From the NCBI RefSeq assembly GCF_964204645.1, contig NC_134026.1, forward strand, positions 15,224,150-15,288,149: DNA of 64,000 nt, in the 5' to 3' direction. The position numbers and the translations under genes are program-made. The DNA is from Tubulanus polymorphus (Eukaryota > Animalia > Nemertea). Position 1 is the stretch's first letter, and each line of letters opens with the position of its first letter. Positions 20,160-62,658 of this stretch are shown one piece after another. The notes below the pieces were generated by a model. That model had not been told where the DNA came from, ran no database searches, and worked only from the letters and a program-made list of their open reading frames with translations.

Positions 20160-20919
20160 TTTTAGCCCACTTGGGACTTAAGTCCCTGCGGGCTATTGCG
20201 TTCAATTTTCGTCCGTTCGTCCGTAGAAGGAATCCAGTTATTTTGGGAAGTTTTGAAGACGCTTCAATGTAATGTCTTGATGTTTGGGTTACGCATGTAT
20301 CTACCCAAGACACATCTTCAGCCCAAAAACTGGCCCTGTCAGAATCAAGATGGCCGACTGGCAGCCATTGTTTTTCGCCAAAATTAGCACTTTTTACACA
20401 TTTTTGAACTTTTTGAGGGAAATTTTGAAGACGCTTTGATCAATTACTTTGATCAATTACCTTACCGTTCTTATAAATTTTTTCTTTCCTTTTTATTTTC
20501 TTCATTCATCATCATCATTCCTTAGATCAGTGTAAATCTCCTTAAGACGGTTTTTGGCGGTAGTTAGCACAATTGTGGAGTCGGAGAAACCAATATGTCT
20601 CATTGGAAAAGCGGCTCTAATTCGGAATATTTTCCGACTTTTTCAATATGGGCCGTATTCATCCCTGGAATATGGTCACCAGGGCGCGTTGAATAGTTGA
20701 ATAACTTAGTATTTCCATGTTAAATAGATAACGAGGCGTATTTTGTTGTCATAATCAATTACAAAATCTTAGCTGCTGACATGTTCTATGATTGTGGTGA
20801 GTTTCAAGGTCATTGGTATTTGTAAATTGTCAGCAGGGGGCGTTGAATATTGAAATTGATAGATTGTTGAGCATTTGAAACCACTTCCCAAGTGGGCATG
20901 TTGTCCCTGGACCCCTAGT
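20160..20919 (+). mobile_element. Helentron-associated (HINE/DINE-1-like) non-autonomous element, copy 1
   Basis: T-rich 5' flank, subterminal inverted repeat GCCCACTTGGGA / TCCCAAGTGGGC, 5' palindrome GGGACTTAAGTCCC, (CGTC)n microsatellite, short 3' stem-loop ending CTAGT. Confidence 0.7.
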
Positions 20920-33841: not shown

Positions 33842-34173
33842 TTTTAAGATGTTATTCCACAGACGGCAGGGGAGAGCAGTATCATTGATTTTATTTTCTT
33901 CTATTCTTCAACAAGAGGTTTCGCCCAAGTCTCTTCTGGACTTGAACTGTGAGTGCTACTGGGACTCACAAAAAAAACCAAAAAGCTTCTAGGGATAAAA
34001 GAGACACCCCCTCATACACCAGACGCTTCAATCGGCTTTCTGACTGACTTCCACACCTCAATGGGGATGCAGGCCTTCGTTTCAGGCTCATCTTTTTTGT
34101 CTGCGGCAAATTACGGGACCCTCCTGTTTTTCAAAGGGACCTGGCTTGTCAAATTATTATTGAAAACACGGTA

Positions 34174-35115
34174 TTGAGATTAAACTTTATTTTTATATAT
34201 AAAGGGGCGCGCGATGAAAATACCCCTAATGTTGGGTACCAAGTTGTGACCGATCTCACTGATATTGCATCTCCAGGACAGGCCGTATTTTGTGACAATT
34301 TCTTTACATCCTGTAAACTTTTGGCAGATTTGAAAGCTTGTGGTATTGGTTGTTGTGGAACTGTCAAATGTAATCGGGAAGGTAACCCTGATGAATTGAA
34401 GATATTCAAAAAATCTACGCGGAAAGCCGTTCTCGTCGAGAAATCATCCTTATTCATGTGGAACGACACCACCAACATATTGGCGGTTGGATGGTTTGAC
34501 AAGCGCCCTGTGTGTTTGCTGTCCAGCGTTGATGCATCTACAACTATTGTCAAGAGAATTCGGGCAAGAAATGGGGAAAATGGATATCGGGAGATCATCA
34601 AACCCACTGCGATCGACAACTAAAACACGTATATGGGAGGTGTTGACAAGTCTGACCAGTTCAATTCATATTTCATGTTATTGCATCGATCGTGCAAATG
34701 GTGGAGGAAGGTATTCTTCCATTTACTTGTTACTGCAGTTACCAATTCTTATGTTTTACATAAGGTCTCAGACCCAAATGCAAATAAGAGACTAACTGTA
34801 AGAGAATTCCGCCTCTAACTTTGTGATGAACTTCTGGAAAACCATCAGCCTTCATCATCCACCCCCGGACACCGCGTTGCTGACCCCCCACTGCGCCTGA
34901 ATGGTCTTGCCCACTTAATGGAGAAGACTAATGGAAGACCTGATTGTGCAGTTTGTACGATAAGAACTGGCAAAAAATATGCATACCGTAAACAAACACA
35001 GAAACAATGTAAGACATGTGTGCCCCATGCCCCATTATGTGATATTCCATGCCATGAGATCTACCACACGGTTTCAGACTACAAAAGATACTACAGGGAG
35101 AATTATCACCATTAA
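34174..35115 (+). pseudogene. piggyBac transposase C-terminal fragment with stops
   Basis: VFCDNFFTS, CGTV, WFDKRPV, MGGVDKSDQ, KWWRKVFFHL and a Cys-rich end CAVC..CKTC..LC..PCH..YH. Confidence 0.85.
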
Positions 35116-37510: not shown

Positions 37511-38828
37511 TTTTAGCCCACTTGGGACTTGAGTCCCAGCGGGCTATTGCTTCCACTTTTCGTCCGTCGTCCGTCCGTCCGAAGACGGAATCCAGTTATT
37601 TTGGGAAGTTTTGAAGACGCTTCAAGGTTATGTCTTGATATTTGGTTTATACATGTATCTACCCTAGACACATCTTCAGCCCAAAAACTGGCCCTGTCAG
37701 ATTCAAGATGGCTGACTGGCAGCCATTGTTGTTCGCTAAAATCAGCACTTTTTACACATTTTCCAAAATTTCGAGGGAAATTTTGGAGACGCTTTGATCA
37801 ATTCCCTTGATCTTTGGTTTATATTTGAATCAACCAAGGGCCATATCAGCATAAGAAAAATTGGGTCGACCTGACAATTTGTGATGGGTATTCTTTGGAA
37901 AGGGATGTTTTATACCTGAGACAGGTATTTTTGATCAGCCAATTATGACACAATTGGCGGCCATCTTGGTGTCATCAGTACTCACTTGAAGGTGGGAAAA
38001 AGTTTTTCCACATTAAATTCATGCCTAAGCATATTGTGTTACTATATTCAATTGGGAAGTTGTAGCCCATAACGTGTTTTATGATTTTGGTGAGTTTCAA
38101 GGTCATTGGTTTTTGTATGTGGCCACCAGGGGGCGTTGAATAATACAATAACTTAGTATTTCTATATTATATTTGTACCTATGCATATTTTGTTACCACA
38201 ATCAATTGCAAAGTTTTAAGTCATGACATCTTCCATGATTTTGGTGACGTTTAAGGACATTAGTTATTCTATATGGTCACCAGGGGTGTTGAATAGTAGA
38301 ATAACTTAGTATTTCCTTATTAGATTGGTACCTAGGCATATTTTATTACCATGGTCAATTGCAAAGTTGTAGTTCATGACATCGTCTATGATTGTGGTGA
38401 GTTTTTAAGGACATTAGTTATTCCATATAGTCACCAGGGGGCGTTGAATAGTAGAAAAGCTTAGTATTTCCTTATTAGATTGGTACCTAGGCATATTTTG
38501 TTACCATGGTCAATTGCAAAGTTGTATTCCATGACATGTCCTACGACTGTGGTGAGTTTTAAGGTCATTGGGTTTTGCATATGGTCACCAGGGAGCGTTG
38601 AATAGTAGAATAACTTAGTATTTTCCATATTAAATTGGTAACGAGGCATATTTTGTTATCACAATCAATTACAAAATCATAGCTGCTGACATGTTCTATG
38701 ATTGTGGTGGATTTCAAGGTCATTGGTTTTGTTTGTGGTCTCTAGGGGGCGTGATGTATTGAAATTGTTAGATTGTTGAGCATTTGAAACCACTTCCCAA
38801 GTGGGCATGGTGTCCCTGGACCCCTAGT
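37511..38828 (+). mobile_element. HINE-like element, copy 3, with ~5 internal 154-bp tandem units
   Basis: Both subterminal inverted repeats present; the CACCAGGG unit recurs at 38124, 38278, 38432 and 38586, with a degenerate copy at ~38740. Confidence 0.75.
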
Positions 38829-41800
38829 ATTTATTTCAGCAGCGCATACCAACCTTTGTTGAGCGTGCGTGATTGGTCTTGAAATTGGTATTCATGCGAG
38901 GCATAGTGCTGCCGACAATTCAATTCATTCTTTATTGACACAAAATTTCACAATATAACATTAACTTTCACATTTAAAAAAAATTCTTTTAATTTTCTTT
39001 TACTTTCATTGAGTGCTTGCGTTAGTGGCCATTTGAAAAGTATGAACATTTATATTTTTCAGTTTTAATATCTTATAAAACTTAAAACCGCTTTTCCGTA
39101 AAATAAATTCTGAATTGAATTGAAGACTGGTTCCCTTTCTCTTCAAAGAGCCAGGGGGCGGTAGTTTTTGGTGGCAATAAACTTTATCCGATGATCGTAG
39201 TGGATTGTCATTTGAAGGAAATGCAACTTATTCTTGCTTAATGTCTTTATTATTTTAAAAAGAAAAATCGTGGCTCCTTTCTATTTTCATGACCCACATC
39301 ACTGTTAATGTGTACGACGTACTGGCTGGCTACGTTTATGCAGCACACATTACTATTGTACGGGATGGCGCAGGCTGGTGTCGGATACTACATGAACAAG
39401 TTTATGGTTTCAGGACGATTTTGTGGTCCAGTACTGGACAAAACTATCTCTGCCCACATAGATATTCGTGATGTATATATCAGTCCTTATATATCATCCC
39501 CTTGTGGTTAACAATAGAGGGAATGACTTTTAAATAAGGATGAATGCTTGCTTCACGACCTAGAAATATGCTGTACTCTATAGTCACAAATTCCTTCGTT
39601 CTGAGGCGTCTGGTCCAAATTAAATGGAATAATTTCGACTGTTTATTAATAATAACTGTTGGCTTCCTAAACATCGGATGTTTGATTGGAATCTGATGTA
39701 TTTGAGTCACTATTTTGCACTTTAATCGCTGTTAGTATCACTGGTTTCTATACACTACACCATGTTGTTTTTGTCTGGGTTCTCAGAATGACGTCACACT
39801 TCTGGGTTGGGAATGAATCAGCACGGCCGATCAAAAGTTTCGCTTTAACAGTAATTGAAGAATGGAAAATCAATTTCTTCAAATGAATAGGTTATAATTG
39901 ATGATGAAAAATACTTTTTAAAACCTCAAAAATCTAAATAAACCTCTTCATGACCCCGTTAAGTATAAAACCTAAATGAAATGTATAAATCAGTTGACTG
40001 ACAACAGTAAACATGTATTGTAAAATTCCATCGGTTCGGCCATTCTCTAAGATAAGTTTTCACTTTAAGATGCCATTCCTGCATTCTGGGTACTCGAGGT
40101 GGTAGCAGCACCTTACACACTCGGCAGATAGATTCGATTTGTAAATGCACGCCGGGAAAAATAGCTTTTATTATCTTTTTCATGCGTTGAACACCAAAAC
40201 AGTGATCGAATTTCGTCGTAAATTGCAATATTGCAATGGTTTTTTGCCGCTGCTGTAGTTATTTGGAATTGAATGGAGCGGCCTCAGTAGCTCAGTGTCA
40301 GTGAGATGTTGCATCCACTATCAAGTGCTGATTGGGTTTGAGAACCTGCTGGCTCGTAGAGTGTGGGGGCAACACTTCAAGGGCCGTTCCATTGTGAGGT
40401 TAAATTTAATGAACAATCCAATAGGGTTAGTCTTGGAAAAGCAAGATCCAAACGACGTATAGCCAAACAAACAATTATCAGCCGGCCTCAGTGATACCAA
40501 CACTGGTATCGCTTCTCTGCAATGTTTTGATTTTTGCATGCGTATGTTCTACTGGTTGATCTACATATTATGCATCAGAGGATTTTGCAGTTGCATTTAG
40601 AAAAATCGTTCCGTTTTTGTTTTCATTATTCAGTAGGGCCTAACAGTTCATGCGAAAAAACTGGGGTTTTGTATCCAAATCCTGTTTGATATAAATATCT
40701 TGGCTGGAACATGAAGGAAACATCAGATAAAACTAGTTTCGTCTTTTTACAGAATCGCAATAATGAGGTTTAACAATACAAATAGGCTAAATTGTTCGGA
40801 GAAAAGAAATTCATTTTTCAGCGTGAATAAAAGTCGTACTGGATAAATTTAACCTTTAAGTCTGTAGACCTCTGTAAGTCTGTGTAAAGCATTAACCACT
40901 TAATACCTTACCACAGTATAATCTCCCAATGCTTCAAGGCGCATGGCCCTCTTGTTATGCATGTTGCTTCCTTAAAGTCGCAGAAAAATGTTATTATCAT
41001 GCACATAGCTTGGTAAAAGTCACAGATTATCCAAGGTAACATTGTGAAAAACACCACAGAAAATTTGCAATTTTCAAAAACTATTCAAGTTTCAAAAATA
41101 AGAATATTGAAGTATTTTATCACATTATGCTATGAAATCAAATTTGGGGGATTTTTTTTTCGGGGGATCGTTACCCAATCCTATATGGATCAACGCAAGC
41201 ACCAGCTGTGTATGACTACTCATTGAGAGCATATATGTCAGTGTGTTTAGCGACAACGCGTTGTGGGGGGCATACTGTATTTACTTCATCGTCCGTCTGT
41301 CCGCAGTGGTTTCTGTGCCCTAGCACCTAAACCTTTTGACAGATTTTCTTCAAATTCAACAGTTATGATATGAGGTTAGTAACTGCTTAGATTTCGGGTC
41401 CTGTAGGTCCAAGGTCAAGGTCGCAGGAAGTCATTTTGTAAATTTCCAGGGATGAAAATCTTGGTTGTAGGTCATTTTTATCTTTCTTGAGATTGATGTA
41501 GATCCGTTGAGTAATTGATATGGTTTGATTGTTAGATCGTAGCATACTTAAAGAACAGACCATAAAATCGTCTCATAAAACCATTGCTACGATCTCTGAA
41601 ATCTTTTTTTACAACATCATTGCAAAACACCGCTGTTGTCTAGAACCACTGTGCAGATCCGCGCAGTGCGGCAAATCTATATTTGGAATCTGCAATTCAT
41701 CCAACAAAGCATAGCCTACGTGCTCAATAAAAGTGGCTTTAGTGGTAGATTGGAAGATTATAGATAGGGGCTCCTCAGGGACTCTACTATTCATTGACAA

Positions 41801-42269: not shown

Positions 42270-43100
42270 TTTAGCCCCTTTGGGACTTAAGTCCCAGCGG
42301 GCTATTGCGTTCACTCCAGTTATTTTGGGAAGTTTATAAGACGCTTCAATGTAAATTCTTGATATCTTGGTTACACATGTATCTACCCCAGACACATCTT
42401 CAGCCTCAAAACTAGCCCTGTCAGAATCAAGATGGCCGACTGGCAGCCATTGTTGTTCGCCAAAATCTGCACACTTCACATATTTTTGAACTTCTCGATG
42501 GAAATTTTGAAGACACTTTCATCAGTTTCCTTGATATTTCACGACCGTTGCCGAGATAGGAACTCTGCCAACAATTGGATTAGTTCTTTTCGCCGTGGAT
42601 TTCTGGCGCACCGATCGCGCTTAATGCTTATGCATTAGACCAGACACCTGATACGGGTGTATCGATAGGGCGACGTACATGCGAAGGATTCGAATCTAAA
42701 TTTTTCTAAAATCAATATAAGCCACAACTGAACAAAACCACATTTTGATTGGTCGAATTCCTGCCGCTACGTATCCTGGGAAATTGCTCAAACCAGGAAG
42801 TGAAATGTTTTTGTGAATTTTCCGGTCATTAGTTTTTGCATATGGCCACACGAGGCTTTGAATAATACAATAACCTAGTATTTCTATATTACAGTTGTAC
42901 CTTAGCATATTTTGTTACCAGAATCAATTGCCAAGTTGTAGCTCATGACATCATCCATGATTTTGGTGAGTTTAAGGATAGTAGTTATTCCATAATGGTC
43001 ACCAGGGGGCGTTGAGCATAACTTAGTATTCCTTTATTATATTCGTACCTAGGCATATTTTGTTACCATGATCAATTGCAAAGTTGTAGATCATGACATC
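42270..43100 (+). mobile_element. HINE-like element, copy 4 (rearranged)
   Basis: Same 5' end and 154-bp units as the other copies, with an unrelated insert at ~42530-42830. Confidence 0.6.
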
Positions 43101-45521: not shown

Positions 45522-46794
45522 TGCTATTGCGTTCACTTTTCGTCTGTCCGTCCGTTGTAGCATTCGTCCGTCCGTTGTAGCATTCGTCCGTCCGTCCGTC
45601 CGTAGACGGAATCCAGTTATTTTGGGAAGTTTTGAAGACGCTTCAAGGTAACGTCTTGATATTTGGGTTACACATGTATCTACCCTAGACACATCTTCAG
45701 CCCAAAAACTGGCCCTGTCAGAATCAAGATGGCCAACTAGCAGCCATTGTTGTTCGCCAAAATCAGCACTTTTTACACATTTTTGAACTTTTTGAGGGAA
45801 ATTTTGAAGACGCTTTGATCAATTAGCTTGATCTTTCGGATATATGTGAATCCCCCCAGGGCCCATTAACATAACAAAAATTGGGTCGGTCGGACTCAAG
45901 ATGGCCGTCCTATGACCTTTTTAGTGCCCAAAAATGTTAATTTTGGCCCGAATTCTGAGTCCTGTAGCTTCCTACTGGTTTGCCATTTCTCATTGCAATT
46001 TGTGATGGGTATTCTTTGGAAAGGGATGTTTTATACCTGAGACAGGTATTTTTCATCGGCCAATTATGACGCAATTGGCGGCCATCTTTGTGTCACCAGT
46101 ACTCATTCGTAAGTGGGAAAAAGTTTTTCCACATTATATTGATACCTAAGCGTTTTTTGCAACCACAATCAATTAGAAAGTTGTAGCTCATAACGTGTTC
46201 TATGATTGTGGTGAGTTTCAAGGTAATTGGATTTCGTATATGGCCACCAGGGGGTGTTGAATAATACAATATCTTAGCATTTCTTTATTATATTCGTACC
46301 TATGCATATTTTGTAACCACAATCGATTGCATAGTTGTAGCTCATGACATCATCTATGATTGTTGCGAGTTTTAAGGACATTAGTTTTTCTATATGGTCA
46401 CCAGGGGGCGTTGAATAGTAGAATAACTTAGTATTTCCTTATTATATTGGTACCTAGGCATATTTTGTTACCATGATCAATTGCAAAGTTGTAGTTCATG
46501 ACATGTTCTATGATTGTGGTGAGTTTCGAGGTCATTGGGTTTTGAATATGGTCACCAGGGGGCGTTGAATAGTAGAATGACTTAGTATTGCCATATTAAA
46601 TTGGTAACGAGGCATATTTTGTCATCACAATCAATTACAAAATCGTAGCTGCTGACATGTTCTATGATTGTGGTGAGTTTCAAGGTCGTTGGTTTTTGTA
46701 AATGGTCACCAGGGGGCGTTGAATATTGAAATTGTTAGATTGTTGAGCATTTGAAACCACTTCACAAGTGGGCATGGCGTCCCTGGACCCCTAG
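45522..46794 (+). mobile_element. HINE-like element, copy 5, followed by a further partial copy (46797-48244) interrupted by a MITE
   Basis: (CGTC)n microsatellite; 154-bp units at 46245, 46399, 46553 and ~46707; 3' end CAAGTGGGCATGGCGTCCCTGGACCCCTAGT. Confidence 0.7.
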
Positions 46795-46920
46795 TATATA
46801 TGGCCACCAGGGTCGTTGAATAATATAATATCTTAGTATTTCTATATTATATTTGTACCAATACATATTTTGTTACCACAATCAATTGCAAAGTTGTAGC
46901 TCATTACATCGTCTATGATT

Positions 46921-48125: not shown

Positions 48126-48963
48126 ATGATTGTGGTGAGTTTTAAGGAAATTAGTTATTCAAGGGGCATTGAATATTGAATTCTTAGATTGTTGAGCATT
48201 TGAAACCATATCCCACGTATGCATTGTGTCCGTAGACCTCTAGTGCTAATTGATGCTTGACCTTGTTTCTTGATAATGATGTCAATATGAGAACCCTTTA
48301 GCATTCAAGTTCATTATACAGAGAACAGACATTATATTGATTGTTCTGCCATTTGCCTGGGGAGAACCTATTACAGTGCTTCATCAGTAATAGGGGTAAT
48401 GGGCTTTCAGATCAAAGGTCGAACGGTCGAGCTCATTAAAAAACAAAACATTAAAAGTAATTTAAAACTATAATATATTTTCATAACCGTGTGCATTTTA
48501 TATTAAAACTAAATATTTATTCTAAGATATCAATAATTTAAAAAGCATATTGTATTAAATCAATTGGTCGCTCCACTTCGCTACCGCTCCGCTCCGCGAA
48601 TAACATATAAATTGATAGATTATTCAATATAAAAGTGTTATTAAAGTGTGAGTAAAAAAGTAACGAGTAATTAACGAGCTCTTTTAAATAGATATATAGA
48701 TATATTTTAAACATATTTCAATATTTATATTTGTATGAGTTAGATTTTTAAACATAAAAAGTGTGAGTAAAGTGTGAGTGAAATAATTCATATTTAAATC
48801 ATTGAATATTTATATTTATATGTGTTAAATTCTTATTTTCAGTATAAAAGTAACGAGTAATTAATGAGTGAGATAATTCATATTTAAAACAGTGAATATT
48901 TATATTTATGTGCGTTAAATTCTTATTTTTTAACATAAAAAGTAACGAGTAATTAACGAGTTG

Positions 48964-49572
48964 ATGAAAATATCAATTTTAATAACAAAATTACTTATAA
49001 ATATGAATGAACAGATACTACAGTTCAAAGATATCGATTTAAATGAATTAGAAAAATATTTTACAATTAAAAATTTCATTCCTATTAAAGATTTGATTAA
49101 AACTGCGCGTCTTCGTTTTCAAGTGAAAAATATTACTGAATTAGTGTTTAAAAATCACTATCTGATAATAGAGTTATCGAATGATAAAGATAAAATCTTA
49201 TTCAATACAATAATTCCAAAATTCACAACATTTGATGGAATAGATAAACATTTAATAATTACAGATGAAATGCAATCACTTTTTAATGATGAAAGTACAT
49301 TATTAAATCATAAAACATTATTTTTACACTTACGTTATTGCCCATTCAGAGAATGCTATGTTATGTTTTTCAGATTACAAGAAAAGAGATTTATCCCTGA
49401 CATTCCAAATGAAAAATCATATAAAGATGTTGGAATTCAATGTAATTTAGATAATGAAATTGTTGCGCCTAAATATAATCCTAATGAAAGCGTTTTATGT
49501 AATTGTGGAAAATATTATACTCGAAGCAATAAATCACACCATCTTAAATCAAAATATCATAACACATATTAA
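48964..49572 (+). CDS. Hypothetical protein with C-terminal zinc finger, left TIR copy (alternative ATG at 49003)
   Basis: Open ~200 codons in very AT-rich DNA; ends CNCGKYYTRSNKSHHLKSKYH. Confidence 0.65.
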   Translation: MKISILITKLLINMNEQILQFKDIDLNELEKYFTIKNFIPIKDLIKTARLRFQVKNITELVFKNHYLIIELSNDKDKILFNTIIPKFTTFDGIDKHLIITDEMQSLFNDESTLLNHKTLFLHLRYCPFRECYVMFFRLQEKRFIPDIPNEKSYKDVGIQCNLDNEIVAPKYNPNESVLCNCGKYYTRSNKSHHLKSKYHNTY

Positions 49573-49667
49573 AGATAAAAACTAATAACATAACCGATGA
49601 TTTAAAAACATTAAAACATCATTTTGATTTCAGTAACTATCCTAAAGATCATGAATTGTTTAGCATG

Positions 49668-50150
49668 AAATGATAAATTGTTTGACAGTTGAAGTGATAA
49701 ATTGTTTGACAGTTGAGATGATAAATTGTTTGGCAGTTGAAATGATAAATTGTTTGACAGTTGAAATGATAAATTGTTTGACAGTTGAAATGATAAATTG
49801 TTCGACAGTTGAAGTGATAAATTGTTTGACAGTTGAAATGATAAATTGTTCGACAGTTGAAATGATAAATTGTTGGACAGTTGAAATGATAAATTGTTGG
49901 ACAGTTGAAATGATAAATTGTTTGACAGTTGAAATGATAAATTGTTTGACAGTTGAAATGATAAATTGTTTGACAGTTGAAATGATAAATTGTTTGACAG
50001 TTGAAATGATAAATTGTTTGACAGTTGAAATGATAAATTGTTCGACTGTTGAAATGATAAGACAGTTGAAATGATAAATTTTTTGACAGTTGAAATGATA
50101 AATTGTTCGACAGTTGAAATGATTAGACAGTTGAAATGATAAATTGTTTG
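49668..50150 (+). repeat. 24-bp minisatellite ATAAATTGTTTGACAGTTGAAATG, ~20 units
   Basis: Directly visible tandem array at the inner end of the left TIR. Confidence 0.95.
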
Positions 50151-50272
50151 AATGTCGAAATGTTAAATTGTTTGGTTGTAAATTTAATTGTTATTCGATT
50201 TGAAACATATAAAAGTTAAATATTTCTAAAATATCAAATATTTATCAATTTAATAATTTTTTTCTTAAATAA

Positions 50273-50491
50273 ATGGATGGTTTCATTCCAACTGGGAAAA
50301 GTGATTTGAAACATTATTTAGTTGCTGGAGGTTTAATATTAGCAGCATTATATTTTTACTATGAGAATATTTCAGAAGATTTGATGAATGAAAATAATAA
50401 ATTGAGTAAAAAATTAAAGAAGTTAAATGGAAACAATCACAGAAATAGAAAGAATAAAAAAGTTAATTTAGAAAATGATTTAGAGGATTAA
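50273..50491 (+). CDS. Small hypothetical protein (72 aa) with predicted transmembrane helix and basic tail
   Basis: Hydrophobic stretch YLVAGGLILAALYFYY; ATG in TAAATAAATG context. Confidence 0.5.
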   Translation: MDGFIPTGKSDLKHYLVAGGLILAALYFYYENISEDLMNENNKLSKKLKKLNGNNHRNRKNKKVNLENDLED

Positions 50492-50529
50492 AACAGCATC
50501 TTTTAATTTCATATATTTTGACTATAAAA

Positions 50530-50832
50530 ATGAGTGAAAATATATTAAACTTATTACATCTAATATATAAAAATCAACAGAATATTAAATCAATTATTAT
50601 GCTTACAGGTTTATTTTCTTTTTCAATTTATAGTATAAAACAGTTGTTAGAATTCTATGATTGCTGTAAAATTAGATACACTGAATTAATAGAAAATATA
50701 AATTATATTTCAGATAGATTGAATAATATTAAATGCTGTGAAGTATGTAATAAAAGATATAAAAATTTAAAGAGTTTAAAAACTCATAAATATATTCATG
50801 AACTTGATGAAAAATTATATGATTCAAAATAA
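50530..50832 (+). CDS. Small hypothetical protein (100 aa) with hydrophobic helix and C2H2 zinc finger
   Basis: IIMLTGLFSFSIYSI; canonical C2H2 CEVCNKRYKNLKSLKTHKYIH. Confidence 0.6.
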   Translation: MSENILNLLHLIYKNQQNIKSIIMLTGLFSFSIYSIKQLLEFYDCCKIRYTELIENINYISDRLNNIKCCEVCNKRYKNLKSLKTHKYIHELDEKLYDSK

Positions 50833-50874
50833 GAAATCGACTGTTAAATTAGCTGAAAATATAAAATATATTAA

Positions 50875-50930
50875 AAAAAAACAATAAGTTAAATAAGTTA
50901 GTATTAGATAAAGTAACTTATTGTTTTTTT
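50875..50930 (+). terminator. AT-rich hairpin (17-bp perfect arms, 22-nt loop) downstream of the core ORFs; terminator role is inferred
   Basis: AAAAAAACAATAAGTTA (50875-50891) / TAACTTATTGTTTTTTT (50914-50930). Confidence 0.3.
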
Positions 50931-51147
50931 ATTTAAATCTTTTTGATTTCTATTCGCGCTATTGGTTAACAAGAATTGACTAGAATTCAAATAGATTTAA
51001 CAAGAAATTCAATAACTTTAACTGTTAGTATCACTCTTGTATTATTTCATTGTTTTTATTGAATAAGCCAACTAACTAATATCACTCTTGTATTATCCTA
51101 GTCAAATGTAAAGAATTTACAATATCATACTTGAATGAATTAAAACA

Positions 51148-51981
51148 TATCATTTCAACTGTCAAACAATTTATCATTTCAACTGTCAAACAATTTATCA
51201 TTTCAACTGCCAAACAATTTATCATTTCAACTGTCAAACAATTTATCATTTCAACAGTCAAACAATTTATCATTTCAACAGTCAAACAATTTATCATTTC
51301 AACTGTCAAACAATTTATCATTTCAACTGTCAAACAATTTATCATTTCAACTGTCTTATCATTTCAACCGTCAAACAATTTATCATTTCAACTGTCAAAC
51401 AATTTATCATTTCAACTGCCAAACAATTTATCATTTCAACTGTCAAACAATTTATCATTTCAACAGTCAAACAATTTATCATTTCAACAGTCAAACAATT
51501 TATCATTTCAACTGTCAAACAATTTATCATTTCAACTGTCTTATCATTTCAACTGTCAAACAATTTATCATTTCAACTGTCAAACAATTTATCATTTCAA
51601 CTGTCAAAAAATTTATCATTTCAACTGTCAAACAATTTATCATTTCAACTGTCAAACAATTTATCATTTCAACTGTCAAACAATTTATCATTTCAACTGT
51701 CAAACAATTTATCATTTCAACTGTCAAACAATTTATCATTTCAACTGTCAAACAATTTATCATTTCAACTGCCAAACAATTTATCATTTCAACTGTCGAA
51801 CAATTTATCATTTCAACTGCCAAACAATTTATCATTTCAACTGTCGAACAATTTATCATTTCAACTGTCGAACAATTTATCATTTCAACTGTCAAACAAT
51901 TTATCACTTCAACTGTCAAACAATTTATCATTTCAACTGTCAAACAATTTATCACTTCAACTGTCAAACAATTTATCATTT
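51148..51981 (-). repeat. 24-bp minisatellite, inverted copy, ~35 units
   Basis: Tandem array of CATTTCAACTGTCAAACAATTTAT. Confidence 0.95.
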
Positions 51982-52079
51982 CATGCTAAACAATTCATGA
52001 TCTTTAGGATAGTTACTGAAATCAAAATGATGTTTTAATGTTTTTAAATCATCGGTTATGTTATTAGTTTTTTTCATCT

Positions 52080-52688
52080 TTAATATGTGTTATGATATTT
52101 TGATTTAAGATGGTGTGATTTATTGCTTCGAGTATAATATTTTCCACAATTACATAAAACGCTTTCATTAGGATTATATTTAGGCGCAACAATTTCATTA
52201 TCTAAATTACATTGAATTCCAACATCTTTATATGATTTTTCATTTGGAATGTCAGGGATAAATCTCTTTTCTTGTAATCTGAAAAACATAACATAGCATT
52301 CTCTGAATGGGCAATAACTTAAGTGTAAAAATAATGTTTTATGATTTAATAATGTACTTTCATCATTAAAAAGTGATTGCATTTCATCTGTAATTATTAA
52401 ATGTTTATCTATTCCATCAAATGTTGTGAATTTTGGAATTATTGTATTGAATAAGATTTTATCTTTATCATTCGATAACTCTATTATCAGATAGTGATTT
52501 TCAAACACTAATTCAGTAATATTTTTCACTTGAAAACGAAGACGCGCAGTTTTAATCAAATCTTTAATAGGAATGAAATTTTTAATTGTAAAATATTTTT
52601 CTAATTCATTTAAATCGATATCTTTGAACTGTAGTATCTGTTCATTCATATTTATAAGTAATTTTGTTATTAAAATTGATATTTTCAT
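52080..52688 (-). CDS. Right-TIR copy of the zinc-finger hypothetical protein
   Basis: Identical to the protein at 48964-49572 except for two residues (K/E in LVF[K/E]NH, R/S in HL[R/S]YCP). Confidence 0.65.
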   Translation of the reverse strand: MKISILITKLLINMNEQILQFKDIDLNELEKYFTIKNFIPIKDLIKTARLRFQVKNITELVFENHYLIIELSNDKDKILFNTIIPKFTTFDGIDKHLIITDEMQSLFNDESTLLNHKTLFLHLSYCPFRECYVMFFRLQEKRFIPDIPNEKSYKDVGIQCNLDNEIVAPKYNPNESVLCNCGKYYTRSNKSHHLKSKYHNTY

Positions 52689-54515
52689 CAACTCGTTAAT
52701 TACTCGTTACTTTTTATGTTAAAAAATAAGAATTTAACGCACATAAATATAAATATTCACTGTTTTAAATATGAATTATCTCACTTGTTAATTACTCGTT
52801 ACTTTTATACTGAAAATAAGAATTTAACACATATAAATATAATATTCAATGATTTAAATATGAATTATTTCACTCACACTTTACTCACACTTTTTATGTT
52901 TAAAAATCTAACTCATACAAATATAAATATTGAAATATGTTTAAAATATATCTATATATCTATTTAAAAGAGCTCGTTAATTACTCGTTACTTTTTTACT
53001 CACACTTTAATAACACTTTTATATTGAATAATCTATCAATTTATATGTTATTCGCGGAGCGGAGCGGTAGCGAAGTGGAGCGACCAATTGATTTAATACA
53101 ATATGCTTTTTAAATTATTGATATCTTAGAATAAATATTTAGTTTTAATATAAAATGCACACGGTTATGAAAATATATAGTTTTAAATTACTTTTAATGT
53201 TTTGTTTTTTAATTAGCTCGACCGTTCGACCTTTGATCTGAAAGCCCATTACCCCTATTACTTTCATCTAGCCAAAAATAGAGAGACGGCAATGAAATGT
53301 CTCGTATGATATCAACGATAGTAGCTCATGTGATCAGTGGTTATATTCAAATGTACTGCAGTCAGTGTGCATCGTGTGAAAACGTGCCTCAGATACGTGG
53401 CCTAGTTTAAGTTTCCAGGAAATTGGCTGACTTCCAAACTACTGCCAATCATTCTAGCGACTGCCGTTGTAAAGCTGGTAGTGTATATTCGATGCATTGT
53501 TTCGTTTTGAACACATCGTGATGCTCTGGATCTTTTTATCTAGACTATTAGACAAATTTTATATATACAAGGTGAAAAACTTTGTTTGGTGAACTCACAG
53601 AGAGACTCGCAGAGACAATTAGTTTGAGTAGCCTAATAGCAATAATGTTTTCTTAAACTGGCTGCTTACCAATTATCAACAGTTACTTGCCAATCACTAA
53701 CACTATCAATTCAAATAAATTAATTTGATATTTCTAAGATTAAGAATATGCAATTTCATGTAGGCCGATACACTATTGCTGACTCTTTTTCGCTGTATCA
53801 TTTGCTTTTTGAGATTGATTTTTTCTGCTATTTTTGTATGCAACTGGTTGTCCAAATCATTTTGAATGCCCTTTCTATCATATTATTGATTAACTTATGT
53901 TCATTGACAGGCATAGGTATAAGGATGTACTGTGGTCAAGTGTGTCTGTCACTCATGGCAAAATCAGACTTAAAGATAGTTTCTACTCCTCAATCGTAGT
54001 AGGGGGTACCTCGATTCTATGCATTAGGGAACATTGCAGTTTTCCCCCTAAAACAGACGTGAGTGCGTTATTATGTGCCCTTGCTCCGATGGAATCACGC
54101 ACAAAAATGCCCTTATTTGAAATCAGCACCCTGCCCTTTTTAATGCTAGATGAAGCACTGTATTACTATATTGTTTATCATCATAGCTGAACCTGCAGAT
54201 TACAGTCATGTTATGCACCAAGATTTTATCGTTTTATGTGAAGCTATTGAGAATATCACAACAAATCAATTTTCGTGATGAAAAAAAAGAACATATATAG
54301 TACAGCTAAGATTGCATTGGCATTCAGGCACATTCCGAATGCACGTGTTGTGCATTTCAAAGTTTACGATACACATGAACATAACATGTTCAGTTCAACA
54401 CACAAACCTTGTGTAATTAAATGTTAGCATATCAATAAATGCTAGGTTTTGTATATGGTTAAGGCCAAAATGTAGAGGCCATACAAAATGAATCAATGGG
54501 CTAAGCTATGTTTTA

Positions 54516-56607: not shown

Positions 56608-57141
56608 TGGAATCCAGTTATTTTGGGAAGTTTTGAAGACGCTTCAATGAAATGTCTTGATATTAGGGTTACACATGTATCTACCCTAGACACATCTTCA
56701 GCCTAAAATGAGAGAAATTTTGAAGACGTTTTGATCAATTACCTTGATCTTTCGTGTATATTTGTATCACCCAATTGCCCATCAACATAACAAAAATTGG
56801 GTCGACGGGACTCAAGGTGGCCGTCCTATGAACTTTTTAGTGCCCAAAAATGTAAATTTTGGCCTAAATTCCGAGTCCTGTAGCTTCCTACTGGTTTGCC
56901 ATTTCTCATTGCAATTTGTGATGGGTATTCTTTGGAAAGGGATGTTTTATACCTGAAACAGGTATTTTTGATCAGCCAATTATTGCGCAATATGTGGCCA
57001 TCTTGGTGTCATCAGTACTCATTCGTAGGTCGGAAAAAGTTTTTCCACATCATATTGATACCTAAGCACATTGTGTATCACTATCAATTGGAAAGTTATA
57101 GCTCATAACATGTTCTTTTTGGTGAGTTTTAAGGTCATTGG
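56608..57141 (+). mobile_element. HINE-like element, copy 6, cut by the DIRS insertion
   Basis: Homologous to the other copies up to AAGGTCATTGG. Confidence 0.65.
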
Positions 57142-57479
57142 TATTTCCGTCGAGTACTGTACCCTTTCCTATGGTTTTTGCCAATATTTTCTAAATTTGG
57201 ATTTATCGCCATTGGTTTTTCTATACGACCCGGCCCTGCGATATTGCATTTAGCCACCGGCGAAATCCGCCATCTTTTTTCTTGGCGTTCTCGCAGTAGA
57301 ACGCGTTGGATTTTTTCGCCGTAAAAATCTGGGAATTAGGATATTAGGGAGTTTTCACTCTCATAACGGTGAGTCCGTTCGGTTTGGGGGTTATCCCTGG
57401 TTTCTTTTTTTCCGTAAGAATTTTATTTACAAATATAATTTGATTGAATTGAATTGTTTTGATTTGTAACAGGATAATT

Positions 57480-59710
57480 ATGCCACCCCCTCCTAAGGGT
57501 CAGCATCGTGGCGGGGAGGGATGCGGGCATTTGTTTGGCGCCTGGGACAACCACGATTCATGTGCGTCGTGCAGGCGCAAATCCGGTCATATATGTGCAA
57601 GGAGCAATCCTTGCAATATTTGCGTCGTGTGGTCCGAGGACCTTTGGCTTCGGGCCGATAAGGCTCTTAAACTAAGAGATCGTCATCGAGTTAGCAGGGA
57701 TTCGTCGGTTTCGGCCGATGTGCCAACCGACGTTTCTAATCCTGTTTCTTATCGTAAAGCGGAGCGGTCGCCGGTCGTTCAGGTACGATCGGCTTCCCAA
57801 CTCCGTTCACCGGGGAGGAACGCTGGTTCACCGGCACCGGTGGCCGGTCATTCACCGGTCTCTGGTCGTTCACCGGTTCGGCCGTTTCGGCCGGTTCAGA
57901 CTACATGTTCGGAACCGAGCGCGCGCCGCAGTAGTCGCGAACGGCCCGCACCGGTTCGGTCGGTACCGGTCCAGTCCGGCATCGGTCCGGTTCGGCCACC
58001 GGTCCGGTCCAGACGTCGTCCGGTTTAAAACATCCGGTACATTCATCGTCTGATTCTGATCGTCGCTCCGGGGATAGAGCTCGCTCTCCCACTAGATTTA
58101 GACGCCGTGAGCGTAATAAACGAGCAAGATCTCCTTCTCGCAGATCAAGGTTTGATCGCGAGAGGGACTACGATCGTTATTGTCGGAAGTTTCGCCGTCG
58201 GTCTTCTCATCCTTCGTCGACGTCGGGTAGCGATGAAAGCGATTCTTCTAGTAGGTCGCGATCCCGTTCGAGGGACCGTCACCGAAGTCGGCATGATCGT
58301 CGGGATACTGGAAAATACCTGACTCAGAAGGATTTCCATGTATTTGAGGAGAAAATTTTAAACTTGTTATCTTCGTCGCAACAAGTCGCTGCAACTTCTA
58401 CAACAGGTAAGCCTATTCCTGATTGTCCGGTTAGAAGTTCGCCAGCCCACTCAGTTTTTCGGAATTCTGACTCTGAATTCCTGGATGCTGCGGTAGGGTC
58501 TGATTTCAATGAGGATCCAGTCCCAGAAGCGGCAATTCCTTCTGGGGTCGTTCCTGTCGCAAGCAATTGTGGGTTGCCCCAGACGATGGGGGCTTCCCTG
58601 GCTCGCAATGTATCTCCGTCCCGTTCAGTTTTATCCGAACCAGCGGGGGACATGCCATTTAGAGCGATGATAAGTGAGTTCTTTGTCAAGCACGGGGCAA
58701 CTCGCGCTAAGCCCACAGCAGCTCCTCTGGTCGGTGAGTCAATGGAAACTTATCGCCCTCCGGACTCCGATCTTAACGTTTTACGGGAATCGTCAGCGGT
58801 TTCGAGAGAATGGGCTCGATTGGATACGCAATTATGGGGTGAATGTCGGCCTGGAACATTTTCATTTCCCCCTCCAGAACGGGGAATGAAATCTGGGAAA
58901 TATTTTAGTTCAACCGATCCACCTATAGGCGCATTTCGCTCGGCGTATTACGCGACTCCAGGTGCTGTGGATCACAGTCATAACTGCCTGGATGCTGATT
59001 ATACTTTGATCAGCCCGGATACTGTTACAGCACAGTCGGGTATTCGTTTGCCTAAGTCCGGTTTGGTGGCCATGACGTCAATCCTGGACAATCTTACCAG
59101 GGTTGGTTCGTTTCAAGATATGGCACTTAAGGTGTTGACGGGTGAGCTTCGCGAGACTCACGCCGCCGTTCATGCGGGCTCCGACCCAGAGTCAGTTGCC
59201 CTAAAACTGGAGGGAATGGACCGGATTATCCAATCTTTGGCTCGGTCTGTTTCGCATGTAATTCCGTTGTCGGTTCGGGGTCAGGCTAATCTGGTATTAG
59301 CCTCCCGTCAGTCAGTGATGGACTCCAGTTCCAAAACTCGTCTACCGGATATGGTGTCCAATGCTTTGCTGAGAGCCCCATTGGGGACGTCTTCACGTCT
59401 CTTCTCCGGTTGGTGCGCTCCGGTTTCCGCAGAGCTGAGGAAGATTCGGGAGGTTCAGGCCAAGTCCAACCCCCGAACTCCGTGGAAAAAGCGTTCTGGT
59501 CCGACGCCGGCGCAAGGTTCGGCACGGACGCAAACAGGACCATCTCAAACTTCAGCGCTTTCTCAGGCGGCTTCGGATGCCGGTTGGAGAACTAGCGCGC
59601 AACTTCAACAATCGTGTCAAGCCTCGTCCGGTCGTAACAGTTCCGGTTCGTATCGAGGCAAGGGGAAGGCTCCAAAAAGGGGCTCTTCCTTTCGGAAAAA
59701 CTCGAAATGA
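57480..59710 (+). pseudogene. DIRS ORF1 (gag-like): Cys/His-rich N-terminus and RS-rich region; one frameshift at or before ~58028
   Basis: CGH..DNHDSCASCR..HIC..PCNIC..W. The frame of ORF 58364-59710 is open back through the SR-rich stretch to at least ~58030. Confidence 0.8.
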
Positions 59711-61748
59711 ATTCTTGGGACCAGTGGGAGGTTGTCTGCAGCAGGCAGCAACCCACTGGTCCGACCTCTTTGGAGACGGTTTGCCCTCCCGCGTCGTCTC
59801 TCGTGGCTACCGTCTCCGTTTCCTAAGGCGACCGCGCCTGATGAGGTCACCTCCCGACATGCGGCCAAAACCAGGTCAGGAGGCCTTAATCTCTCCGGCT
59901 CTCAAGGAACTGGCAGAGAAGGGAGCGATAGAACCAGTTTGCAACGAAACTTCTCCCGGCTGGTTTTCTCGAATATTCATGGTACCAAAGGCCACAGGGG
60001 GTCAACGGACAGTGATAGATCTGTCATCCCTCAATCGGCACCTAGACATCCCAAGGTTCCGGATGACCAAGCCCAAGGACGTGATTCAAGGGCTCCGTCC
60101 GGGTCAATGGGCGGCTTCATTGGACCTGAAAGATGCTTATTTTCAGGTTCCAATTCACCCAAAATCTCGGCGATTTCTCAGGATAAAGTGGAAAGGCCGC
60201 CAGTTCCAATTCAGGTCTCTTCCATTTGGCCTCAGTACGGCCCCGTGGGTTTTCACCAAGTTGGTCAAGTCAGTTCAGAAGGTACTTCAGTCAAGGGGTG
60301 TTCGACTGTTCGTTTACCTCGACGACTGGTTAATAGTCGCGAATTCGGCTCAGGAATGTCGGGAGGCAATGACCTCAGTCTTGGACTTAGTCCATCAGCT
60401 AGGGTTCCGCGTAAACAGGGAAAAATCTCAGTTGACGCCGGCCCAACAGTTCACTTATCTCGGCATGGACTTCGATCTCCGAATCGGCAAAGTCTTTCCG
60501 TCTATGGCTCGAGTAGCCAAACTTCAAGAAGCTGTAGCGGGAGTGTCCACAACCCCGAGAACAGCTCGTTACTGGTCACGGCTTCTAGGCTCCATCAGCT
60601 CCATGGGTCTGGTGGTGCCCTTAGGCCGCCTCAGAAGCAGGCGCTTGCAACAATATTGGAAGGGCTTCTGGTCTCAGTCGAAGGGCAACTGGGAGGCCTT
60701 GATTCCCGTACCTCCAACCGATCTAAGTCCGGATCTTCAGTGGTGGGCGGCAACTACGAATCTTCGGCTCGGGTTGTCACTAGCCCCATTAGAGGCTCCA
60801 GTTCGTGTATTCACGGATGCCAGTCACCAAGGATGGGGGGCACATCTGGAGAACCGAGTCAAAGCCGGGAGATGGTCTCGCTACGAGGCCACCAACCACA
60901 TAAATTTCCTAGAAATGCTGGCCGTGTGGAAGGCCCTGAAGTTCTTTCACAGGAGAGTGGAGGGCCACCACGTTTGGTTAGCCACAGACAATTCAACAGT
61001 GAGGGCTTACCTTCAGAACCAAGGGGGCACTCACTCAGAAACCCTCACAGGTCTGTCGGCCAAAATTCTTCTTTGGTGCCAGACAAAGGGCGTGTTCCTG
61101 ACTGTGGCACATTTAGCAGGGAAAAGGAACGTGATGGCCGATGCTCTGTCTCGTCGAGGTCAGGCTATTGCGACAGAATGGGTTCTCCACCAAGAAGTAG
61201 CCGATCGGGTTCGGGGCATTTTTGGCAATCCGCTGCTGGATCTGTTTGCCACCCGGTTCAATCGGAGGTGTCCTCTGTTTGTGTCCCCGTTTCCAGATGC
61301 GGAAGCGTGGGGGGTCGATGCCTTCTCTCTGGACTGGTCGGGGATGCATGCGTATGCGTTCCCGCCCACACCAGTCCTGCCGCGCTTACTGGATCAAATA
61401 GAGAGATCAGTCAATTGCAACATAGTTCTGGTAGCACCATGTTGGCCGGCTCAGAAATGTTTCCTACCACTTTTCAACCTACTGTGCGACAACCCCAGGA
61501 TTCTTCCGAATTTCCCATCGCTTCTGTCTCAGGGGAACTTTCGGCATCATCCAAACAGCCAGTGGTTAAATCTGCTCGCCTGGCCATTGTCCAGCGATCG
61601 TTGTCAGCTTCAGGCTTTTCAGAACAGGCTGCCTCCTTTATCGCAGGATCTAAGCGGCCATCAACAAGTACCATTTACGATGCCAAATGGAGTCATTTTG
61701 CGGATTGGTGTGCTGCAGGGGAAATTGATCCATGCTCACCCTCTGTAG
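59577..61748 (+). CDS. DIRS reverse transcriptase - RNase H - DNA methyltransferase-like domain
   Basis: LDLKDAYFQ, LPFGLSTAP, YLDDWL, FTDAS.GWG, HINFLE, TDNSTV, NVMADALSR, DLFAT, YAFPP. Confidence 0.93.
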   Translation: MPVGELARNFNNRVKPRPVVTVPVRIEARGRLQKGALPFGKTRNEFLGPVGGCLQQAATHWSDLFGDGLPSRVVSRGYRLRFLRRPRLMRSPPDMRPKPGQEALISPALKELAEKGAIEPVCNETSPGWFSRIFMVPKATGGQRTVIDLSSLNRHLDIPRFRMTKPKDVIQGLRPGQWAASLDLKDAYFQVPIHPKSRRFLRIKWKGRQFQFRSLPFGLSTAPWVFTKLVKSVQKVLQSRGVRLFVYLDDWLIVANSAQECREAMTSVLDLVHQLGFRVNREKSQLTPAQQFTYLGMDFDLRIGKVFPSMARVAKLQEAVAGVSTTPRTARYWSRLLGSISSMGLVVPLGRLRSRRLQQYWKGFWSQSKGNWEALIPVPPTDLSPDLQWWAATTNLRLGLSLAPLEAPVRVFTDASHQGWGAHLENRVKAGRWSRYEATNHINFLEMLAVWKALKFFHRRVEGHHVWLATDNSTVRAYLQNQGGTHSETLTGLSAKILLWCQTKGVFLTVAHLAGKRNVMADALSRRGQAIATEWVLHQEVADRVRGIFGNPLLDLFATRFNRRCPLFVSPFPDAEAWGVDAFSLDWSGMHAYAFPPTPVLPRLLDQIERSVNCNIVLVAPCWPAQKCFLPLFNLLCDNPRILPNFPSLLSQGNFRHHPNSQWLNLLAWPLSSDRCQLQAFQNRLPPLSQDLSGHQQVPFTMPNGVILRIGVLQGKLIHAHPL

Positions 61749-62658
61749 CTCAATTGGCAGATTTTTTACTGCACCTATTTGTAGTAAAAGGTTTGCAGGT
61801 CATAACTATTAAAGGTTACCGCTCCGCGATTCTCATACATTGCGTGCTTCTGGATGGCCAAATGTAGCAGGGGATCATCGGATATCCCAGCTGGTTGCAG
61901 GGTTTTCTTTTTCCCGGCATCGGGTAACAAGAACAGTTCCACCATGGGATCTGTCTGTAATTTTGAAGAAGTTAATGGAGGCTCCATTTGAACCTCTTTC
62001 GGCAGCGTCATTTGCAAATTTGTCAAAAAAGACTGTATTTTTGCTGTTCTTGGCTTGCTCGGCCCGTCGCTCTGAGATTCATGCGCTTTCAGTTCGACAA
62101 GGTCATATTGTCTTTGGGCCAGCGAATGAATTTGTTTCGCTGCGGCCTGCTTTGGAATTTTTGGCAAAAAACCAACGACCAGGCTCGGTTGGGCGTCAAT
62201 GGCGAATTGAAGCCCTAAAACATCGAGTGGAACCGGGCATCCCGGACAGGACTTTATGTCCGGTGCGGGCATTGTGTTTCTACTTAGATCGCTCTGCTTC
62301 ACGGAGGGGTTCACGGGAGCGGTTATTTATTCCGCTGCTGGATCACCTAAAGGGGGATATTTTGCGGGACACAGTAGCCCGATGGGTCTCTTCAATGATC
62401 AAGGACATTTTATTGAAGGAGAATCTTTCCTCGGAGGGAGTCGTTTCTCATCAAGTGAGGTCTATGGCTACTTCCTGCGCAGCCTTTTCGGGTGCTCCGT
62501 TGGAGGAGGTCTGTCGGGCCGCCTTTTGGAATTCACCGTCGACATTCACGTCATTTTATTTACGGGATGTTTCAGGTCAGTTAGGCTCATTAGCTTCACT
62601 TGGTCCTGTTGTCATGGCTCAAGGTGTCCGTTCTTTCCGATCGGACCCTTTAGTGTAG
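59732..62658 (+). pseudogene. DIRS tyrosine recombinase ORF overlapping RT; 1-bp frameshift near 61831
   Basis: N-terminal core-binding region ST..IY..KW..F..WC in ORF 59732-61867; catalytic R (SARRSEI), HxxR (HQVR) and Y (FTSFY) in ORF 61840-62658. Confidence 0.88.

What the first reader, a model, noticed from the sequence alone, without database searches (positions are those of the whole stretch)
48386..53262. Gene-carrying 'mini-Polinton': Polinton ends, ~80% inverted repeat, no core genes
Seen: a 4,877-bp element with AG...CT termini, an exact 6-bp TSD (TTCATC), TIRs plus minisatellites making up about four-fifths of its length, very few differences between the TIRs, and four uninterrupted ORFs. 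Established: 5'-AG/CT-3' ends, long TIRs and 6-bp TSDs characterise Polintons/Mavericks, which normally encode pPolB, a retroviral-type integrase, a packaging ATPase, a protease and capsid proteins; non-autonomous derivatives are known. Inference: none of those genes or their remnants is recognisable here, yet small virus-style ORFs remain intact. This may be a recently inserted satellite, a linear plasmid-like parasite mobilised in trans by a helper Polinton or virus and conceptually similar to transpovirons, rather than a decayed copy.
Basis: partly seen in the sequence, partly recalled or inferred. Interest (0 to 1): 0.85.

Follow-up and report, generated by a model that had tools for sequence, protein, structure and literature searches.

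The report
Shrunken Polinton with giant inverted arms
This 4.9-kb insertion has Polinton-type ends, two mirror-image arms that each carry a scrap of a viral-type DNA polymerase gene, and two small genes between them; it is likely a cut-down copy of a longer, multi-copy virus-like transposon of this animal, not a new kind of plasmid-like parasite.

Summary
The anatomy is real: 4,877 bp, AGTAAT…ATTACT ends, exact TTCATC duplication, arms making up 80%, four open ORFs (three distinct). One claim is wrong: each arm holds a 34-codon relic that is 88% identical to a 1,319-aa protein with all six protein-primed polymerase motifs, starting just after the catalytic DTDS. In raw reads of another sample of the species, ORF202 lies at about 19x and the core at about 10x single-copy depth. 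But 31 reads leave the window sequence at 51149 for one other sequence, and at most 5 run on into the right minisatellite. So this layout is a rare shortened form of a longer family whose missing part I could not see. Variants in ORF72 are mostly synonymous (7 of 11), so the small genes were under selection somewhere in the family. No transpoviron helicase. Verdict: a non-autonomous Polinton derivative with unusually long, gene-carrying arms. The scan noted similar long-armed Polinton derivatives on other DNA (unchecked notes). A helper-dependent mini-Polinton family remains possible (about 20%).

The parts
48380..48385 (.). Left target-site duplication TTCATC
48386..49665 (+). Left arm (terminal inverted repeat, non-minisatellite part, 1,280 bp), beginning AGTAAT
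   Evidence: 12 differing columns of 1,283 against the right arm
48744..48961 (.). About 2.4 copies of a 90-bp subterminal repeat (mirror at 52691-52897)
48964..49572 (+). ORF202, left copy. Residues 160-202 are a CxC...H...H zinc-finger-like module; the first 160 residues have no relative. The true start may be the second Met at 49003 (inference from context).
   Evidence: no Pfam, PHROG or NCBIfam hit
49563..49664 (+). 34-codon relic of a Polinton-type protein-primed DNA polymerase, from just after the catalytic DTDS motif
   Evidence: 30 of 34 identical to P0003 residues 1166-1199
49666..50174 (.). Left 24-bp minisatellite, 21.8 copies, starting where the polymerase relic stops
50175..51147 (.). 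Unpaired core, 973 bp, 20% GC
   Evidence: read depth median 10x single copy
50273..50491 (+). ORF72: one hydrophobic stretch, then a basic Lys/Asn-rich tail; no relative found
   Evidence: 7 of 11 listed read variants synonymous
50530..50832 (+). ORF100: hydrophobic stretch and a C-terminal C2H2 zinc finger (below Pfam cut-off)
   Evidence: zf-C2H2_6, E 7e-4; 7 of 19 listed variants synonymous
51149..51150 (.). Junction at which most related molecules leave the window sequence; inferred deletion breakpoint of this copy
51148..51983 (.). Right 24-bp minisatellite, 35.4 copies, inverted to the left array
51985..52089 (-). Mirror copy of the polymerase relic (one extra codon)
52080..52688 (-). 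ORF202, right copy (2 residues differ from the left copy)
51984..53262 (-). Right arm (1,279 bp), ending ATTACT
53263..53268 (.). Right target-site duplication TTCATC

Best explanation
This is an integrated Polinton-ended element with no intact polymerase, integrase or capsid gene, likely made by an internal deletion of a longer multi-copy Polinton family of this animal and likely inserted by a Polinton integrase. Shown: the ends, the 6-bp duplication, a polymerase relic in both arms, a multi-copy core and arms, and a junction at 51149 that few related molecules share. Inferred step 1: an ancestor rearranged so that a subterminal gene (ORF202) abutted a scrap of the polymerase gene, and a 24-bp minisatellite grew at the edge of the scrap. 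Inferred step 2: this whole end was copied to the other end, probably by fold-back (panhandle) copying during strand-displacement replication, giving arms of about 1.8-2.1 kb that the longer family already had. Inferred step 3: a deletion joined the ORF72/ORF100 block directly to the right minisatellite. Inferred step 4: the intact ends let a helper Polinton copy and integrate it; alternatively the longer form inserted here first and was shortened in place. The small ORFs would be accessory genes inherited from the parent, still open because the copy is young.
For: Relic: 30 of 34 residues identical to P0003, directly after YFDTDS; best tblastn E 1e-12 against the window, with the next unrelated hit at E 0.24. 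P0003 and P0004 carry Exo I-III and Pol A-C motifs in order and an endonuclease-VII-like insert, as described for Polinton pPolB2 (10.1101/2023.08.22.554363, section 5). End motif is one base from (AGT)2 and the duplication is 6 bp, as in PMC8097293. Run X6: single-copy depth 6.95; ORF202 19x; core median 10x, i.e. about two arms per core; about 300 ends with mixed flanks (1,708 + 404 loose-end reads, agreement 0.35-0.36). At 51149, 31 X6 reads run on into one other sequence (agreement 0.96) and at most 4.9 reads can continue as in the window; in X1, X2 and X4 the last-bin depth is fully explained by contigs that stop at 51149. Arms differ by 0.4% in substitutions, so the copy is young or homogenised.
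Against: The sequence beyond 51149 in the longer form was seen only as loose ends (median 68 letters in X6), so the parent may be only slightly longer and itself lack core genes. No autonomous helper was seen: no genome is held. No library named P0003 a polymerase and the fold failed (pLDDT 37), so its class rests on motifs. X6 is a different sample from X1, X2 and X4 and differs from the window at single-copy sites; a short contig across the junction might not have been laid in X1, X2 or X4. Copy numbers disagree: about 10 per genome from X6 reads, 37-51 from X1 contig depth. The panhandle step rests on recall of adenovirus replication and was not tested.
Confidence: 0.68

Rival explanations
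1. A helper-dependent mini-Polinton family (a true satellite): the family of about 10 or more copies is itself only 5-8 kb long, lacks polymerase and integrase, and keeps its small genes under selection; the window copy is a slightly shortened member.
For: Arm-to-core depth is about 2:1 (19x and 10x). A family whose two arms both hold a broken polymerase scrap looks more like a derivative than an autonomous element. ORF72 variants are 7 of 11 synonymous against 17% expected (p 8e-4), ORF100 7 of 19 (p 0.03); listed ORF100 indels keep the frame in combination (table 4).
Against: The divergent ORF72 and ORF100 reads are deeper (up to 22x) than the non-coding core (8.6x) and many leave the window at 50254, 50528 and 50873, so the selection signal may come from other, possibly autonomous, Polintons. 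Both differences between the two ORF202 copies change a residue (n = 2). No RNA holder could be tested.
Confidence: 0.2
2. An independent linear plasmid-like parasite, like a transpoviron, that merely borrowed Polinton ends.
For: Linear layout with long inverted repeats, small zinc-finger ORFs and low GC; transpovirons also carry a zinc-ribbon gene (PMC5499653, passages).
Against: No SF1 helicase or any ORF over 202 aa outside the repeats; a Polinton-type polymerase relic in both arms; integrated with a 6-bp duplication; no relative in viral contigs.
Confidence: 0.04
3. The short layout is an assembly collapse of a longer element: the assembler jumped from the core into the right minisatellite.
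For: No listed contig of X1, X2 or X4 crosses 51149 as the window does, and at most 5 X6 reads do.
Against: The arms are not identical (5 substitutions, 3 indels) and the arrays differ in unit order and number; the duplication is exact; the jump is from unique core into the array, with no shared repeat on the core side that I could find; a single heterozygous or private insertion predicts the same low count.
Confidence: 0.08

Closest known systems
Polinton/Maverick elements (autonomous; adintoviruses), pPolB2 or Beta-polymerase type
   Same: 6-bp duplication, AGT-type ends, long TIRs, low GC, small accessory ORFs with zinc fingers; a relic 88% identical to a polymerase with an endonuclease insert and no PF03175 match.
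   Different: 4.9 kb instead of 15-25 kb (PMC6431247); no intact polymerase, integrase, ATPase, protease or capsid; arms of 1.8-2.1 kb, against 584 bp in the anole element (PMC3014272) and 744 bp in C. elegans.
Non-autonomous Polintons such as Polinton-1N1_DR
   Same: Polinton ends without the core genes; dependence on a helper. The name was seen in PMC9341505; that N marks non-autonomous Repbase families, and their anatomy, is recalled.
   Different: Carries open ORFs, one duplicated inside the TIRs, with a polymerase relic and an inverted minisatellite pair; this exact layout seems to be about one copy.
Transpovirons
   Same: Small, linear, terminal inverted repeats, a zinc-binding small gene, no capsid (PMC5499653, passages).
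   Different: No SF1 helicase with an inactivated polymerase domain; integrated in an animal chromosome with a Polinton duplication; no giant-virus link shown.
Copy-back or internal-deletion defective genomes of linear viruses (recalled)
   Same: Keeps both replication ends, loses the interior, has enlarged complementary ends.
   Different: Chromosomally integrated; interference with a helper not shown.

Membership tests
Autonomous Polinton/Maverick | 6-bp target-site duplication | tested here: met
   TTCATC on both sides
Autonomous Polinton/Maverick | (AG)3 or (AGT)2 end motif | tested here: inconclusive
   AGTAAT...ATTACT, one base from (AGT)2//(ACT)2 of PMC8097293
Autonomous Polinton/Maverick | Long terminal inverted repeats | tested here: met
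   1.28 kb plus inverted minisatellites
Autonomous Polinton/Maverick | Intact protein-primed DNA polymerase gene | tested here: not met
   Only a 34-codon relic in each arm; no other tblastn hit below E 0.1
Autonomous Polinton/Maverick | Intact integrase, packaging ATPase, protease and capsid genes | tested here: not met
   No ORF large enough and no family hit. Short relics of these genes were not searched with Polinton queries.
Non-autonomous Polinton derivative | Polinton ends and duplication without intact core genes | tested here: met
Non-autonomous Polinton derivative | Sequence descended from a Polinton | tested here: met
   Polymerase relic; the class of the polymerase rests on motifs
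Non-autonomous Polinton derivative | Ends shared with an autonomous element in the same genome | not testable with these tools
   No genome held; about 300 related ends in reads, their interiors unseen
Non-autonomous Polinton derivative | Transposed as a unit: several copies of the same layout | tested here: inconclusive
   At most 5 reads with the window junction at single-copy depth 7, in a different sample; arms and core themselves are multi-copy
Transpoviron | Tlr1-like SF1 helicase gene | tested here: not met
   No such ORF or domain
Transpoviron | Carried in giant-virus particles as a free linear molecule | not testable with these tools
   No places with many molecule ends were listed, which cannot exclude rare free forms
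MITE | Short and non-coding | tested here: not met
   4.9 kb with ORFs beyond chance length

The most novel reading that the evidence does not exclude
The longer family behind this copy is itself a small, polymerase-less satellite of an animal Polinton: giant gene-carrying arms built by fold-back copying, a few small genes kept by selection, copied and perhaps packaged by a helper Polinton, with copy number differing several-fold between individuals. It would be a defective-interfering-like or satellite layer on endogenous polintoviruses, sitting in a nested series that runs down to a 0.4-kb palindromic miniature.
Probability: 0.2. Interest if true: 0.65.

Novelty: new variant of a known kind. 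Interest (0 to 1): 0.33.

Why it matters
The cis-requirements and replication route of Polintons have hardly been tested. A genome with a graded series of derivatives sharing one end (about 210, 520 and 670 bp shared, then 1.8-2.1-kb arms) would map which part of the end is needed, and arms that have swallowed a gene and a polymerase scrap are what fold-back copying predicts. If the longer family lacks core genes yet keeps selected ORFs, it would be a satellite of an animal Polinton, which my searches did not find described. If it is a plain deletion of an autonomous element, it is a curation item.

Tried and rejected
No whole genome is held, so the copy count by BLAST could not be run. ORF202: no homologue of 111-354 aa among 72 candidates; Atlas hits all under 0.9, leads only; single-sequence fold pLDDT 37.6, not searched further; 11 representative hits, all confined to residues 160-202, unnamed, 0 of 11 with a Pfam family. 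ORF72: 0 of 1 candidate; the PHROG hit at E 0.0016 is a hydrophobic-stretch match to a family of unknown function, not used. Viral-contig scans found nothing for ORF202, ORF100, P0003, alignment A1 or two relic patterns. The one metagenome match to the terminal 20-mer (L001) is a chance 21-bp hit inside a bacterial gene. 0 of 6 exact ORF look-ups were in the protein collection. P0003 and P0004 got no polymerase label from Pfam, PHROGs, NCBIfam, PDB sequences or phage genomes; the fold of P0005 failed; the Atlas did not answer for them. Motif searches in the one held supplement of PMC8502044 (about 4 million characters, possibly cut) found nothing. No RNA holder listed. The marine-metagenome run X5 gave only 4 laid contigs at 90-95%, no evidence of habitat. 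The open frames on one strand of the minisatellite were rejected as genes: they follow from a 24-bp unit with no stop on that strand. The terminal 255 nt fold no better than shuffles (z 0.5). Kapitonov and Jurka 2006 is not held.
Full report
1. Observation. The element spans 48386-53262 (4,877 bp), begins AGTAAT, ends ATTACT and is flanked by an exact TTCATC duplication (chance about 3e-4). The non-minisatellite arms are 1,280 and 1,279 bp and differ in 12 of 1,283 columns: 5 substitutions and 3 indels. Inside each arm lies a 24-bp minisatellite, 21.8 copies on the left and 35.4 on the right; the arrays share variant units, including a 17-bp short unit, in different order. Arms and arrays make up 80%; the unpaired core is 973 bp; GC is 23.7% against about 38% in the host DNA. 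The four ORFs are ORF202 in each arm and ORF72 and ORF100 in the core. In 1,000 simulated sequences each, no arm reached 202 codons, 3 cores reached 100 and 23 reached 72. The rest of the window holds eukaryotic transposon remains, which fits an animal genome.

2. 49563-49664, and its mirror 51985-52089, translate to a 34-35-residue stretch. A 40-residue query holding it found 3 of 3 candidates at E 1.5e-11 to 4.4e-8. It is 30 of 34 identical to residues 1166-1199 of P0003, a 1,319-aa protein, starting directly after YFDTDS. P0003 and P0004 carry Exo I, II, III and Pol A, B, C motifs in order (the motif patterns are recalled) and a weak endonuclease VII match between Exo I and Exo II. An HNH-type insert marks Polinton pPolB2, which is reported in annelids, brachiopods, echinoderms, molluscs and nematodes (10.1101/2023.08.22.554363, passages and section 5), and 'Beta' Polinton polymerases are under 30% identical to the PF03175 type (PMC8502044, section 3.1), which fits the missing Pfam hit. 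No library labelled P0003 and the fold failed, so 'Polinton-type pPolB' rests on motifs, and the subclass is inference. tblastn of three polymerases found only the two relics in the window (E 1e-12 to 2e-8; next hit E 0.24). The minisatellite starts where the relic stops, and its unit matches the last bases of the relic at 17 of 23 columns, a score reached by 13 of 2,000 shuffles; this suggests, but does not show, that the array grew from the relic.

3. The small proteins. ORF202 has no family hit and no near homologue. Among 1.84 billion representatives, 11 proteins match, all only at residues 160-202, a CxC...H...H zinc-finger-like module; none has a Pfam family or an informative name. ORF100 ends in a sub-threshold C2H2 finger. 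ORF72 has a hydrophobic stretch and a basic tail and no relative. Of the 40 variant rows shown (160 more were not shown), 30 fall in the two core ORFs. In ORF72, 7 of 11 are synonymous against 17% expected (p 8e-4); in ORF100, 7 of 19 (p 0.03; one row scored as a stop only because two adjacent changes were scored apart). The rows are chosen by support and are not independent events. The listed ORF100 indels keep the frame in combination. Against selection on this copy: both differences between the two ORF202 copies change a residue.

4. Family structure from reads. No genome is held, so I laid public runs of the same species label on the right arm with its flank and on the core, at 90% likeness. 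In raw reads of X6, six low flank bins chosen by eye out of 30 give a single-copy depth of 6.95. Relative to this, the outer 210 bp lie at about 208x, the next 300 bp at 73-78x, ORF202 (3 bins) at 19x, the bin with the polymerase relic at 47x, and the core (29 of 30 bins, the edge bin dropped) at a median of 10x, range 6-22x. 1,708 and 404 reads run off the terminus into mixed flanks (agreement 0.35-0.36), i.e. some 300 ends at many sites. Two arms per core fits the 19:10 ratio. X1 contig depth gives a higher core number, 37-51x; contig depth is a poor measure and AT-rich DNA may be under-read in X6, so copy number is uncertain several-fold.

5. The junction at 51149. Thirty-one X6 reads leave the window at 51149 and run on into one other sequence (agreement 0.96). 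They account for 434 of the 557.5 read-bases in the last bin, leaving at most 4.9 reads that continue into the right minisatellite, against a single-copy depth of about 7. In X1, X2 and X4 the last-bin depth equals 14/25 of the depth just before the break (873.2 against 873.2; 18.1 against 18.2; 8.68 against 8.69), so all contigs laid there stop at 51149; a short contig across the window junction might not have been laid. On the left, by contrast, the core starts at about 60 reads with minisatellite-like joints. So most relatives share left array and core but are longer on the right, and the 4.9-kb layout is about one copy or fewer in X6. How much longer the relatives are, and whether they hold core genes, I could not see.

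6. Mechanism. Shown: Polinton-type ends and duplication, no intact core gene, a polymerase relic, multi-copy arms and core, a rare junction. Inferred: an ancestral rearrangement put ORF202 next to a polymerase scrap; fold-back copying during protein-primed strand-displacement replication (recalled from adenovirus; one search showed only a reference title) duplicated this end into arms of 1.8-2.1 kb; a later deletion joined the core to the right array; a Polinton integrase made the 6-bp duplication, either for the short form with a helper in trans or for a longer form that shrank in place. I give this 0.68, a coreless satellite family 0.2, assembly collapse 0.08 and a transpoviron-like plasmid 0.04.

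7. Comparison with what is known. Autonomous Polintons are 15-25 kb with polymerase, integrase, protease, ATPase and often capsids (PMC6431247, passages), with 6-bp duplications and (AG)3 or (AGT)2 ends; 96% of vertebrate copies are defective (PMC8097293, passages). The element fails membership as an autonomous Polinton and as a transpoviron (SF1 helicase; PMC5499653, passages), and meets the tested features of a non-autonomous derivative. Such families exist by name (Polinton-1N1_DR, one passage in PMC9341505); their first description (Kapitonov and Jurka 2006) is recalled, not read. Eight searches (listings and abstract starts) showed no paper on ORF-carrying mini-Polintons with arms of this size; the library lacks Repbase Reports and most subscription journals, and supplements of the bioRxiv papers were not seen. 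Other papers opened: PMC3014272, 10.1101/2024.01.15.575659, PMC11296320 and PMC11161782 (passages only). Unchecked notes of this scan describe long-armed gene-less and capsid-only Polinton derivatives in other genomes; none matched this sequence.

8. Verdict. A real, young, non-autonomous Polinton derivative with unusually long gene-carrying arms: a new variant of a known kind, interest 0.33. The satellite reading stays open at about 0.2 and can be settled by describing the other copies in the host assembly.

Noticed in passing
window 53052-53262 (reads of X6): 682 reads leave the arm at 53052 into one sequence (agreement 0.97) and 177 join 53052 to 53153 on the opposite strand, while depth rises from 78x to 208x there. 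This points to a palindromic miniature of about 0.4 kb with the same ends, at roughly 100 or more copies: a likely Polinton MITE.
   Followed up: partly
window 53053 and 53262 (table 5): 227 X6 reads and one X5 contig join the terminus to an internal arm position on the opposite strand, suggesting an amplified nested or composite form with one end inside another arm.
   Followed up: no
window 51990-52140: The bin with the polymerase relic is at 47x against 19x for ORF202; the surplus may come from intact polymerase genes of helper elements or from other derivatives.
   Followed up: no
window 52714-53015 (table 5): Related arms skip 48, 77, 137 or 141 bases in the subterminal repeat region, so several subfamilies share these ends.
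   Followed up: no
window 57935-62658: GC-rich retrotransposon with overlapping ORFs: reverse transcriptase and RNase H (Pfam E 7e-24, 3e-7) and a weak tyrosine-recombinase match (E 0.06), DIRS/Ngaro-like layout (name recalled).
   Followed up: partly
window 2896-4661 (-) and 34048-34623 (+): piggyBac-like transposase remains (PF13843, E 2e-74 and 8e-13).
   Followed up: partly
window 452-841 and 11525-13397: hAT-like transposase remains (PF05699, E 3e-6 and 1e-8).
   Followed up: partly
window 38001-38830, 42808-43100, 46122-46920, 20668-20919, 57038-57146: A dispersed repeat family with an internal 154-155-bp tandem unit, present at least five times in the window; a piece lies just left of the element at 48126-48244.
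   Followed up: no
window 53285-54250: The right flank is itself a repeat at about 20-115x depth in X6, beginning 22 bases after the duplication (388 reads with another sequence before 53285).
   Followed up: no
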